Position numbers: made by a program. From Pecten maximus (taxonomy: Eukaryota): DNA of 64,000 bases. Below, piece after piece: positions 6,001-7,693 of this stretch. Each line of letters begins with the position of its first letter. The first letter of the stretch is position 1. The DNA lies in NCBI RefSeq assembly GCF_902652985.1, contig NC_047021.1:15996001-16060000 (forward strand), in the 5' to 3' direction.

Positions 6001-7693
6001 CAATTGCTAAATCAACATAGCTCCACAAATCTAGGGCAGCTCCAGTCATCATATCAAAATGTTTTCAATTTTGTTTGTATGGTTTTTTTTTATTACTCAA
6101 TAAAACAGATTATAACAGAGCTGTCTTAGATTTGTACCACACCTATCAGAACGATGACCTTGTTTAAACGTCTATCCAAACACACCGAGACCTTACCTAA
6201 ATCTACGTCGTCCTTTATAGGCCGACTACTGAATGGAGCGTTTTTGTAGATGGCGTCTAGTATCTTTTCCTTCACTTGAGCTATGGTATCACAGTCCAGT
6301 ACCTTGACTGGGTGAGGCTGCTGACCAAACTGTTCCATGTCCTGTACATACACAGTCTGTAACACACAGGAAACCCAAGTCATGATTATTATTCAATTTA
6401 TAGATCTAGTTATTCATTTTTATGATAAATTTTCAAATAATGTAGACACATCAAGAATCCAATTATCTGAATACCTTATGGTATTTGCACTCTGAAAAGT
6501 TTTTTCATGATCATAACCTATGATCCTCCATCCCGAAAATGTTTGCACTAAATGACCTCTCCCAAGCAGTTATTGCACCCTAACCCTAGATGATTTGACT
6601 GTAACCCCTCCAAAGGTGTTTGTACCCTGTGACCTACCATCTGTACCCTATAACCTACCACTTTTAACCTGTGATCTACCGTTTGTATCCAGTGACCTAC
6701 CACTTTTAACCTGTGACCTACCGTTTGTACCCAGTGACCTTCCATTTGTACCCAGTGATCTACCGTTTGTACCCAGTGACCTTCCATTTGTACCCAGTGA
6801 CCTACCATTTGTACCATGTGACCTACATTTTGTACCCTGTGACCTACCATTTGTACCCTGTAACTTACCACTTTTAACCTGTGACCTACCGTTTGTACCC
6901 AATGACCTACCGTTTGTACCCAATGACCTACCTTTGGTACCCTGTGACCTATCATTTTTAACCTGTGACCTACCACTGGTACCCTGTGACCTACCACTGG
7001 TAACCAGTGACCTACCTTTGGTACCCTGTGACCTACCATTTTTAACCTGTGACCTACCACTGGTACCCTGTGACCTACCTTTGGTACCCTGTGACCTACC
7101 GCTGGTACCCTGTGACCTACCTTTGGTACCCTATGACCTACCATTTGTTTGTATTCGATCTGTTGCCTGATGAGCTTATCCTCACTGAGAGAGTATCTGG
7201 CCTCACTGGTAACATTATCTACTGGTCCCTTTGACACCTGTTGTTTCATGGCCTGATACAGCATAAACAACGGTTCTCCTGCACATTCCTATAAACAACA
7301 ATCATCAGGTTTGATTGTAGTCATACAACTCATATGGATCATTATTAACTTATGAGGGTTTGTAACAGTCCACTACCTTGTAACTGTCAGTCAACATATA
7401 ACCAAATCAAAACAAATATTTAGAAATTCAACAAAGTTCTTTTAATGAAATGTAAATGTTTAAATCCCTGTTATGAGACAAAGAGATTTCCAAAAAGAAA
7501 CTGGTTAAAGGAGTTATTAAAGAGATTTTTTTTAGAAATTTGACTGCAGAGCATTCAATTTTGACTCTGAAGAATAATCATTGACGTGCATATGACTCCA
7601 ATTTGTGATGAACAGATGAAACGCACGTTTCTAACCCCTAATAATCATTCCAACCACCTAATTATCAATGTCACTTATTGGCTGTAATTGTTA

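What the first reader, a model, noticed from the sequence alone, without database searches (positions are those of the whole stretch)
6548..7148. In-frame 21-nt donor ladder that could insert 7-aa modules between the GAP C1 segment and the RBD
The unit CAAATG|GTAGGTCACAGGGTA is 7 codons long and stop-free in the plexin frame (ORF 6548-7270 reads straight through as VGHRVQM-like repeats). Every intact downstream donor is therefore in phase with the next exon. One copy (GT at 6868-6867, 13 units or 91 aa downstream) reads GTG|GTAAGT, closer to consensus than the native ATG|GTAGGT. Other copies have lost the GT (G|GAAGG). Failure to splice would give a C-terminally truncated plexin lacking the RBD and second GAP segment.
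Basis: partly seen in the sequence, partly recalled or inferred. Interest (0 to 1): 0.7.

Follow-up and report, generated by a model that had tools for sequence, protein, structure and literature searches.

The report
Splice-donor ladder in scallop plexin intron
A 21-base repeat that begins on the edge of an exon copies the splice donor of a scallop plexin-A gene 25 times; it is a real example of a repeat type already known from human genes, most likely removed whole with the intron, with no sign so far that it adds protein modules.

Summary
The window carries a minus-strand plexin-A gene that matches Pecten maximus plexin-A4-like. The exon 7288..7142 ends ATG|GTAGGT. A 21-nt array without indels (6617-7148, 25 units) starts 7 nt inside that exon. 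22 of 25 units keep GT. 14 downstream copies score at or above the native donor, and the very next copy (+21, AAG|GTAGGT) is stronger. The plexin frame stays open through all 175 added codons.

The open frame is not evidence of coding. An antisense frame is equally open, and simulation gives P = 0.29 for no stop. All 8 full-length scallop plexin proteins I could examine join IEYKQM directly to TVYVQ. The same RefSeq models do report a different 8-aa in-frame splice variant in this gene. Linker length across this junction is 30-33 aa in 50 of 51 named plexins.

This class is known: human F7, IFI6, CBS, LMNB2 and PDGF carry minisatellites whose first unit spans an exon-intron boundary. In F7 only the first donor is used.

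Best reading: a neutral junction-spanning minisatellite with silent pseudo-donors. Low-level use of the +21 donor is not excluded.

New here: five more arrays in the same gene are anchored on splice sites (6 of 33; expected 2.0; P = 0.006).

The parts
7142..7288 (-). Plexin-A exon (49 aa, phase 0/0), end of the first GAP (C1) segment. It ends ...IEYKQM.
   Evidence: Translation. Pfam Plexin_cytopl, E = 3.8e-13. Residues 1-48 align to Plexin-A1 chain 3ryt_A 185-232. 100% identical to scallop plexin-A4-like proteins. AG/GT borders.
7136..7144 (-). Native 5' splice site ATG|GTAGGT (-3..+6)
   Evidence: 6 of 9 consensus matches, PWM 8.7 (sixth lowest of the 21 donors of this gene scored then), U1 duplex -8.8 kcal/mol. 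All 8 scallop protein models use this junction.
6617..7148 (-). 21-nt minisatellite of 25 units. The first unit spans the exon-intron boundary (7 exonic + 14 intronic nt). Consensus intronic phase: GTAGGTCACAGGGTACAAATG.
   Evidence: TRF. Register table. Per-position variation, 63 differences from consensus in 525 nt. Confined to this locus within the window.
7115..7123 (-). First pseudo-donor (k=1, +21 nt), AAG|GTAGGT, stronger than the native site. Its use would add VGHRVPK.
   Evidence: PWM 11.3, dG -10.3. The same 9-mer recurs at k=3, 6 and 10. Peptide.
6863..6871 (-).
   Evidence: 7 of 9 matches, PWM 10.8, dG -9.1.
6951..6952 (-). Copy k=9 with AT in place of GT (dead pseudo-donor)
6783..6784 (-). 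Copy k=17 with GA in place of GT (dead pseudo-donor)
6741..6742 (-). Copy k=19 with GA in place of GT (dead pseudo-donor)
6548..6550 (-). First stop codon of the read-through (intron-retention) frame, 197 codons after the exon end
6357..6616 (-). Non-repeated 3' part of the intron, with a pyrimidine-rich tract and the acceptor ...tgtgtgttacag|
   Evidence: Sequence. Intron table.
6197..6356 (-). Next exon (160 nt, starts in phase 0), start of the Rho-GTPase-binding domain (TVYVQDMEQ...)
   Evidence: Pfam Plexin_RBD, E = 9.7e-17. PDB plexin RBD chains. 100% identical to the scallop proteins.

Best explanation
This is a junction-spanning intronic minisatellite in a scallop plexin-A gene (exons match Pecten maximus plexin-A4-like).

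Origin (inferred): a founding tandem duplication copied 21 nt made of the last 7 exonic and the first 14 intronic bases. Slippage or unequal exchange then expanded it to 25 units, so the donor is reiterated every 21 nt.

Splicing (inferred from protein models and from the human F7 analogue): the machinery uses the most upstream, exon-abutting donor, and the whole array leaves with the 785-nt intron. The downstream copies are competent but normally silent pseudo-donors.

The in-frame, stop-free property follows from the unit's sequence. It makes an occasional slip to a downstream donor harmless at the reading-frame level, rather than marking a coding function.

Shown here: the array, its register, the donor strengths, the frames and the canonical junction in protein models. 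Inferred: the origin, the silence of the pseudo-donors in vivo and neutrality.
For: Structure:
- Array of period 21 with 0 indels, its first unit reaching 7 nt into the exon.
- The unit is confined to this locus within the window.
- The exon end (...Y-K/R-x-M) is shared by most of the bivalve and limpet plexins printed (cephalopods and vertebrates end in L), so the array derives from the junction and not the reverse.

No sign of coding:
- One of the three antisense frames is also fully open (0 stops; the other two have 6 and 25), and there is a 191-aa antisense ORF.
- P(no stop) = 0.29 under 63 random substitutions.
- The variable unit positions change the amino acid freely.
- No protein family matches the ladder peptide: 0 of the 150 best hits carry plexin motifs, and 1 of 150 carries one heptad word.

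No sign of use:
- 8 of 8 full-length scallop plexins have the canonical junction.
- Only the P0004 cluster matches the RBD exon at 100% among 104 hits.
- The same RefSeq models do report an 8-aa alternative-acceptor variant elsewhere in this gene.

Length constraint: SEDKL-to-CDTI spacing is 30-33 aa in 50 of 51 named plexins. There is no net indel against Plexin-A1 chain 3ryt_A.

Precedent: PMC1557585 (abstract, introduction and discussion read). In F7 IVS7 a 37-bp VNTR starts on the exon 7 boundary. Only the most upstream donor is used, even against pseudo-sites with higher consensus value up to 91. LMNB2 and PDGF behave likewise.

Context: tandem arrays cover 19,374 of 64,000 nt of the window. 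Tandem repeats are the largest repeat class in a scallop genome, at 21.7% (PMC10225492, passages).
Against: - 14 of 24 downstream copies score at or above the native donor. The +21 copy is stronger (PWM 11.3 against 8.7), and the native donor is among the weaker ones of the gene.
- In IFI6 and CBS the second and third reiterated donors are used constitutively (PMC1557585, introduction). Silence is therefore not a rule for this class.
- No RNA reads or transcripts of the source species could be searched. The Pecten proteins are predicted models. The three transcript-derived proteins are only 86.9% identical to the window's exon matches, so they come from other scallops that may lack the array.
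- The GTAGGT hexamer varies less (6 of 150 cells) than the rest of the unit (57 of 375). This is not significant at the level of positions (Mann-Whitney P = 0.095).
- Junction-anchored arrays are more frequent in this gene than a founding-unit null predicts (6 observed, 2.0 expected, P = 0.006). This could hint at something other than pure neutrality.
Confidence: 0.7

Rival explanations
1. Some transcripts use downstream donors (most plausibly +21, then +63, +126, +210 or +273), giving plexin isoforms with 7n extra residues (VGHRVPK...) between the C1 GAP segment and the RBD. These could be splicing noise, a minor isoform, or a regulated or copy-number-dependent linker. I put measurable use above 1% at about 0.2, and a selected function at only a few percent.
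For: - All 21 downstream GT copies are in phase, and the frame is stop-free through 175 codons.
- 14 of them score at or above the native donor, and k=1, 3, 6 and 10 are stronger.
- Using k up to 7 keeps the exon at or below 294 nt, close to this gene's largest mapped exon of 282 nt (range 67-282 nt).
- In IFI6 and CBS the first two pseudo-sites are used (PMC1557585, introduction).
- This is the only one of six junction-anchored arrays in the gene that is in frame and stop-free throughout.
Against: - 8 of 8 scallop protein models or transcripts have the canonical junction.
- No plexin with ladder peptides turned up.
- Linker length is nearly invariant across plexins.
- The insertion would sit directly before the first RBD strand.
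- The open frame has no statistical weight.
- The F7 experiments show stronger downstream pseudo-sites staying silent.
Confidence: 0.2
2. The array is a cis-acting splicing element. Its reiterated U1-binding sites, and the GGG runs in most units, would recruit U1 snRNP next to a rather weak native donor, helping to define the exon or to protect the intron from premature cleavage. They would not themselves be spliced.
For: - The native donor is sixth lowest of 21 by PWM.
- The donor hexamer is the least variable part of the unit, 6 of 150 against 57 of 375 cells.
- On the sense strand, recurrent donor-like sites occur only in the two junction-anchored donor arrays. No internal array has them on the sense strand, while 4 have them on the antisense strand.
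- The enhancer roles of intronic G triplets and of U1 binding are recalled from the splicing literature and were not checked here.
Against: - The hexamer conservation is not significant by position (P = 0.095) and may reflect a few amplified variants.
- In F7 no autonomous regulatory element was found in the neighbouring intron sequence. I saw only that section heading in the outline, plus the discussion.
- The RNA has no unusual folding (z = -0.06).
- The 0 against 4 contrast is too small to test.
Confidence: 0.07
3. The array, or its copy number, is an assembly artefact.
For: Tandem arrays are error-prone in assemblies. Copy number cannot be verified from one window.
Against: - The window has no N.
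- The units differ from one another in an ordered way, 63 differences with distinct proximal and distal subfamilies, which a collapse or stutter would not produce.
- Some 40 arrays of similar style lie in the same window.
Confidence: 0.02

Closest known systems
Human F7 intron 7 minisatellite (37-bp VNTR, 5-9 units; Borensztajn et al. 2006, PMC1557585)
   Same: The first unit spans the exon-intron boundary (4 exonic + 33 intronic nt in F7; 7 + 14 here). The authentic donor is followed by reiterated pseudo-donors. As far as the protein models show, the most upstream one is the one used.
   Different: - The unit here is 21 nt, a multiple of three, and stop-free. In F7 most pseudo-sites lead to a premature stop.
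- There are 25 units here, and they have diverged (81% matches). Some pseudo-donors are stronger and some are dead, whereas the F7 copies are identical.
- The organism is a bivalve.
- Neither splicing behaviour nor copy-number polymorphism was tested here.
Human IFI6 (6-16) intron 2 minisatellite, as described in the introduction of PMC1557585 (authentic donor followed by 25 pseudo-sites). The 12-nt unit length is my recollection of Turri et al. 1995, which I did not read here.
   Same: About 25 reiterated donors, with a unit that is a multiple of three, so that use of downstream sites adds whole codons.
   Different: In IFI6 the two nearest pseudo-sites are used constitutively and the isoforms are documented. 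No such isoform is seen here in 8 of 8 protein models.
Human CBS intron 13, LMNB2 and PDGF intron 4 minisatellites (listed in the introduction of PMC1557585)
   Same: Minisatellites whose first monomer carries the exon-intron junction. In LMNB2 and PDGF only the authentic site is used.
   Different: The units are longer (81-100 bp for PDGF and LMNB2). They are vertebrate genes. In CBS two pseudo-sites are used.

Membership tests
Junction-spanning minisatellite with reiterated 5' splice sites (F7 / IFI6 / CBS type) | Head-to-tail array of a 10-100 bp unit inside an intron | tested here: met
   Period 21, 25.2 copies, 0 indels
Junction-spanning minisatellite with reiterated 5' splice sites (F7 / IFI6 / CBS type) | The first unit contains the exon-intron boundary (exonic bases are part of the unit) | tested here: met
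   The array reaches 7148, and the exon ends at 7142. ACAAATG|GTAGGTCA recurs in distal units.
Junction-spanning minisatellite with reiterated 5' splice sites (F7 / IFI6 / CBS type) | The donor sequence is reiterated in the downstream units | tested here: met
   21 of 24 downstream units keep GT, and 14 score at or above the native site
Junction-spanning minisatellite with reiterated 5' splice sites (F7 / IFI6 / CBS type) | mRNA is made from the most upstream donor (alone, or with the next one or two) | tested here: inconclusive
   8 of 8 scallop protein models or transcript-derived proteins have the canonical junction. No RNA of the source species could be examined.
Junction-spanning minisatellite with reiterated 5' splice sites (F7 / IFI6 / CBS type) | Copy number varies between alleles (VNTR) | not testable with these tools
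   Only one haplotype is in hand
Protein-coding heptad repeat (the ladder as a real coding module) | Frame-specific openness beyond chance, and relatives among proteins | tested here: not met
   An antisense frame is equally open. P(no stop) = 0.29. 0 of the 150 best hits carry plexin motifs and 1 of 150 carries one heptad word. The Pfam DUF6944 hit at 36.6 bits (cut-off 32) is taken as a periodicity artefact.
Plexin-A (host gene) | Plexin cytoplasmic RasGAP segment followed by the inserted Rho-GTPase-binding domain | tested here: met
   Pfam Plexin_cytopl and Plexin_RBD on the two flanking exons, each searched on its own. PDB Plexin-A1/A2/A3/A4 chains are the best matches. 23 exon matches to scallop plexin-A4-like.

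The most novel reading that the evidence does not exclude
Scallop genes, which are very rich in minisatellites, may carry arrays seeded on splice junctions more often than chance allows. This one gene has six: four on donors and two on acceptors. Either splice junctions are hot spots for founding tandem duplications, or reiterated splice sites are tolerated or favoured because the spliceosome strictly takes the exon-abutting copy. Within that set, the 21-nt ladder is the one array where a slip is in frame and stop-free. Copy number and donor choice could therefore yield a length-variable linker between the GAP and RBD parts of a plexin: a splicing-mediated protein-length polymorphism.
Probability: 0.12. 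Interest if true: 0.7.

Novelty: new member of a known kind. Interest (0 to 1): 0.35.

Why it matters
Reiterated splice sites are natural experiments on how the spliceosome picks one site among equals. The human F7 case was used to argue for 5'-to-3' scanning.

A bivalve gene with four donor-side and two acceptor-side arrays offers the same test outside vertebrates, in one transcript. One of the arrays has stronger downstream donors and an open frame. If only the exon-abutting copies are used, that supports an exon-proximal rule in molluscs for both donors and acceptors. If downstream donors are used, plexin would gain a variable linker at a position that is otherwise length-invariant.

For genome annotation, such arrays are a predictable source of mis-called exon ends in repeat-rich mollusc genomes.

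Tried and rejected
- Ladder peptide (174 aa) against 1.84 billion representative proteins: 963 hits at E <= 0.001, best identity 56%. None of the 150 listed carries a plexin motif. I read these as low-complexity noise.
- RBD exon searched alone against longer proteins, to find fragments with something other than IEYKQM upstream. Only the P0004 cluster matches at 100%.
- RNA folding of the array, to see whether structure could mask pseudo-donors: z = -0.06, with 47 of 100 shuffles folding as well.
- Test for extra conservation of the donor hexamer: not significant by position (P = 0.095). The naive cell-wise Fisher P of 1.7e-4 is invalid because the copies are not independent.
- Placement null for junction-anchored arrays. 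A uniform-placement null gave P = 7e-8. I rejected it as too lenient towards the claim and replaced it by a founding-unit null: expected 2.0, P = 0.006 for 6 or more, P = 0.03 for 5 or more. The p37 array ends 2 nt short of the junction by TRF and is counted on the strength of its alignment.
- Search for a separate 24-nt microexon encoding VLFDKSSP in intron 6196..899: none found. It is an alternative acceptor of exon 23.
- Literature. Four full-text searches found the human cases. They found nothing on junction-spanning minisatellites in scallops or other molluscs. I did not open the Pecten maximus genome paper. Supplements of PMC10225492 (repeat tables) were not read.
- Left out:
  - I made no joined (spliced) model, with or without ladder units. 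Every search used a single exon or contiguous window DNA. The structural effect of a 7-aa insertion was therefore not modelled.
  - No eukaryotic genome or read collection was on hand. Presence of the array in other pectinids, and RNA support, stayed unchecked.
  - The third word-index protein search, structure prediction, fold search and complex prediction were not used.
- Many short unnamed hits (about 80% identity) may be vertebrate, possibly human. I did not use them.

Full report
WHAT THE WINDOW IS

The region lies in a minus-strand plexin-A gene. The exon 7288..7142 translates to ECAGEPLF...RQQIEYKQM. It matches Pfam Plexin_cytopl and residues 185-232 of Plexin-A1 chain 3ryt_A. The next exon, 6356..6197, starts TVYVQDMEQ and matches Pfam Plexin_RBD and the solved plexin RBD chains.

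Searching the first exon alone gave plexin-A4-like of the scallop Ylistrum balloti at 100% identity. Its 90% cluster also holds the Argopecten irradians and Pecten maximus proteins. With the Pecten maximus isoform X1, the exon matches in the window are essentially identical. The window is therefore a pectinid scallop, most likely Pecten maximus, and not human.

I refined 23 exons between 52630 and 771. All have AG/GT borders and consistent phases.

THE OBSERVATION

It is confirmed.
- TRF reports one array at 6619-7148: period 21, 25.2 copies, 81% matches, no indels.
- In register with the donor there are 25 units, from 7141 to 6617. The array reaches 7 nt into the exon (ACAAATG|GTAGGTCA), so the first unit spans the junction.
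- The unit occurs nowhere else in the window: 23 matches with up to 3 mismatches, all inside the array, against none in 100 shuffles.
- The exon is 147 nt and phase 0 at both ends, and the next exon starts in phase 0. Every donor at 7142-21k is in phase.
- The plexin frame has no stop in the 525 nt. It ends at 6550-6548.

22 of 25 units keep GT. k=9 has AT, and k=17 and k=19 have GA. k=18 and k=22 have +5A, and k=15 has -1T.

I scored the copies in two ways: with a PWM built from 21 donors of this same gene, and by duplex energy with the 5' end of U1.
- The native ATG|GTAGGT scores 8.7 and -8.8 kcal/mol, sixth lowest of the 21.
- Fourteen downstream copies score at or above it.
- k=1, 3, 6 and 10 (AAG|GTAGGT; 11.3 and -10.3) are stronger.

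IS THE OPEN FRAME MEANINGFUL?

No.
- One antisense frame also has no stop, and it holds a 191-aa ORF at 6595..7170. The second sense frame has only two stops.
- From the consensus unit, only one of 63 single substitutions makes a stop in the plexin frame. With 63 random substitutions, 29% of simulated arrays stay open.
- The variable positions of the unit change the residues freely: [28 protein letters not shown] and others.

IS THE LADDER USED?

Nothing I could test says so.
- All 8 full-length members of the scallop plexin cluster read IEYKQM directly followed by TVYVQDMEQ. These are Ylistrum, Argopecten X1/X2, Pecten X1/X2 and three unnamed transcript-derived proteins.
- The Pecten and Argopecten isoforms differ only by VLFDKSSP. 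In the window this comes from two acceptors 24 nt apart at the start of exon 23, at 898 and 874. Small in-frame variants of this gene do reach the models, but none at the ladder.
- The RBD exon searched alone found no fragment with a different upstream sequence. Of 104 hits, only that cluster matches at 100%.
- The ladder peptide searched against 1.84 billion representatives found only low-identity repetitive proteins. None of the 150 best has a plexin motif.
- The spacing from SEDKL to CDTI across this junction is 30-33 residues in 50 of 51 named plexins that carry both motifs; 13 of the 64 examined lacked the motif pair. The one outlier, a mayfly at 39, has its extra residues inside the RBD loop and not at the junction.
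- There is no net indel against Plexin-A1 chain 3ryt_A.

Limits:
- The Pecten proteins are predictions.
- The three transcript-derived proteins are 86.9% identical to the window's exon matches, so they come from other scallops.
- No RNA or eukaryotic genome collection was available.

WHAT IS KNOWN

Borensztajn et al. 2006 (PMC1557585; abstract, introduction and discussion read) describe exactly this architecture in human F7 intron 7. A 37-bp VNTR has a first unit made of the last 4 exonic and first 33 intronic bases.
- All its pseudo-donors are functional when tested.
- Only the most upstream one is used, even against pseudo-sites improved to a consensus value of 91.
- Only a perfect consensus shifts the choice.

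Their introduction lists further cases:
- IFI6 (6-16): 25 pseudo-sites, with the two nearest used.
- CBS: two pseudo-sites used.
- LMNB2 and PDGF: only the authentic site used.

The scallop array is a new member of this class. Its particular features are an in-frame, stop-free unit and diverged copies that include stronger ones.

MOST LIKELY MECHANISM

A founding duplication of 21 nt across the junction expanded by slippage or unequal exchange. The distal units (k >= 11) keep the exon-like ACAAAT/CG before the donor. The proximal ones carry a derived ACCA(A/G)NG subfamily, which suggests later turnover near the 5' end.

The exon-abutting donor is used, and the array leaves with the intron. The RNA shows no special folding that could hide the copies (z = -0.06).

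I put this at 0.7. A role as a U1-recruiting splicing element is at 0.07, and an assembly artefact at 0.02.

BEYOND THE FINDING

The window is 30% tandem arrays: 40 merged arrays covering 19,374 nt. This fits scallop genomes, where tandem repeats are the largest repeat class (PMC10225492, passages).

Five further arrays in the same gene sit on splice junctions.

Donor side:
- p42 at exon 11 (12568). Each unit carries about 35 nt of exon plus the donor. There are 8 GTATGT and 2 GTAAGC copies, and 3 GC copies. A stop follows after 4 codons.
- p76 at exon 2 (46347). The unit is 51 exonic nt plus the donor, and 2 further copies are intact.
- p37 at exon 4 (20902). 23 copies have GC in place of GT.

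Acceptor side:
- p29 at exon 18 (8583). Five identical copies of the pyrimidine tract, the AG and 14 exonic nt.
- p27 at exon 8 (16376). 32 upstream copies of tgtccacag|TTAAGATGTATA. The nearest pseudo-acceptor is in frame and open.

In every case the copy contiguous with the conserved exon is the one that matches the protein. Six of 33 arrays are so anchored.
- Under uniform placement within the intron, 0.29 are expected (P = 7e-8).
- Under the fairer null of a founding unit falling anywhere that touches the intron, 2.0 are expected (P = 0.006; P = 0.03 if p37 is not counted).

On the sense strand, recurrent donor-like sites occur only in the two junction-anchored donor arrays. Four internal arrays carry them on the antisense strand and none on the sense strand. 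That contrast is too small to test.

Only the 21-nt ladder is in frame and stop-free throughout.

VERDICT

The proposal of protein modules is unsupported so far but not excluded. The cluster of splice-site-anchored arrays in one scallop gene is the part most worth following up.

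Noticed in passing
window 16365-17225 (minus strand; exon 8 starts at 16376): Acceptor ladder: 27-nt array with about 32 upstream copies of tgtccacag|TTAAGATGTATA, that is the acceptor plus the first 12 exonic nt. The real acceptor is the last copy. The nearest pseudo-acceptor (+27 nt) is in frame and open (KMYIYLSTV). The next is +53 nt.
   Followed up: partly
window 8570-8715 (minus strand; exon 18 starts at 8583): Five identical 29-nt copies of ttttctgtag|GTTGACTATGCCAG: pyrimidine tract, AG and 14 exonic nt. 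The real acceptor is the last copy. The unit is not a multiple of three, and the extension has stops.
   Followed up: partly
window 12039-12605 (minus strand; exon 11 ends at 12568): 42-nt array whose unit is about 35 nt of exon end plus the donor. Downstream copies: 8 GAG|GTATGT, 2 GAG|GTAAGC and 3 with GC. Use of any of them would bring a TAG after 4 codons.
   Followed up: partly
window 19894-20899 (minus strand; exon 4 ends at 20902): 37-nt array starting 2 nt from the donor, with homology across the junction. 23 copies have GC where the real donor has GT, 2 have GT and 1 differs otherwise.
   Followed up: partly
window 46092-46398 (minus strand; exon 2 ends at 46347): 76-nt array made of the last 51 exonic nt, the donor CAG|GTAAAG and 25 intronic nt. 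Two further copies are intact and a fourth has lost GTAAA. tblastn sees the exon end repeated three times at 62-71% identity.
   Followed up: partly
window 771-52630 (whole mapped part of the gene): 6 of 33 tandem arrays are anchored on a splice junction. Expected 0.29 under uniform placement (P = 7e-8) and 2.0 under a founding-unit null (P = 0.006).
   Followed up: yes
window 1-64000: Tandem arrays of period 11-155 cover 19,374 of 64,000 nt (40 merged arrays from 55 TRF rows). The largest are 57784-61163 (80 copies of 42 nt) and 42888-45525 (68 copies of 39 nt).
   Followed up: partly
window 874-898 (minus strand, start of exon 23): The 8-aa difference (VLFDKSSP) between RefSeq isoforms X1 and X2 of Pecten and Argopecten plexin-A4-like maps to two acceptors 24 nt apart (acag|TG... 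and tctccag|AATGG), inside the RBD.
   Followed up: yes
window 37224-37973, 40587-41191, 50668-51027, 17603-17653: Four intron-internal arrays carry recurrent donor-like 9-mers (PWM >= 8) on the antisense strand. No internal array carries them on the sense strand. The numbers are too small to test.
   Followed up: partly
window 9247-9306: A run of about 60 G on the plus strand (93% matches), which is poly-C in the transcript, inside the 275-nt intron between exons 16 and 17.
   Followed up: no
window 6620-7141 (minus strand, translated): The ladder peptide scores 36.6 bits against Pfam DUF6944, above its 32-bit cut-off (E = 3.6e-9). I take this as an artefact of a 7-residue periodic query.
   Followed up: no
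one search hit list (P0001-P0003): Three 'UNVERIFIED_CONTAM' Acipenser sinensis proteins score about 150 bits against the 49-aa exon at only 80% identity, more than the 100%-identical scallop protein (91 bits). This suggests the segment occurs more than once in them. I did not examine them.
   Followed up: no
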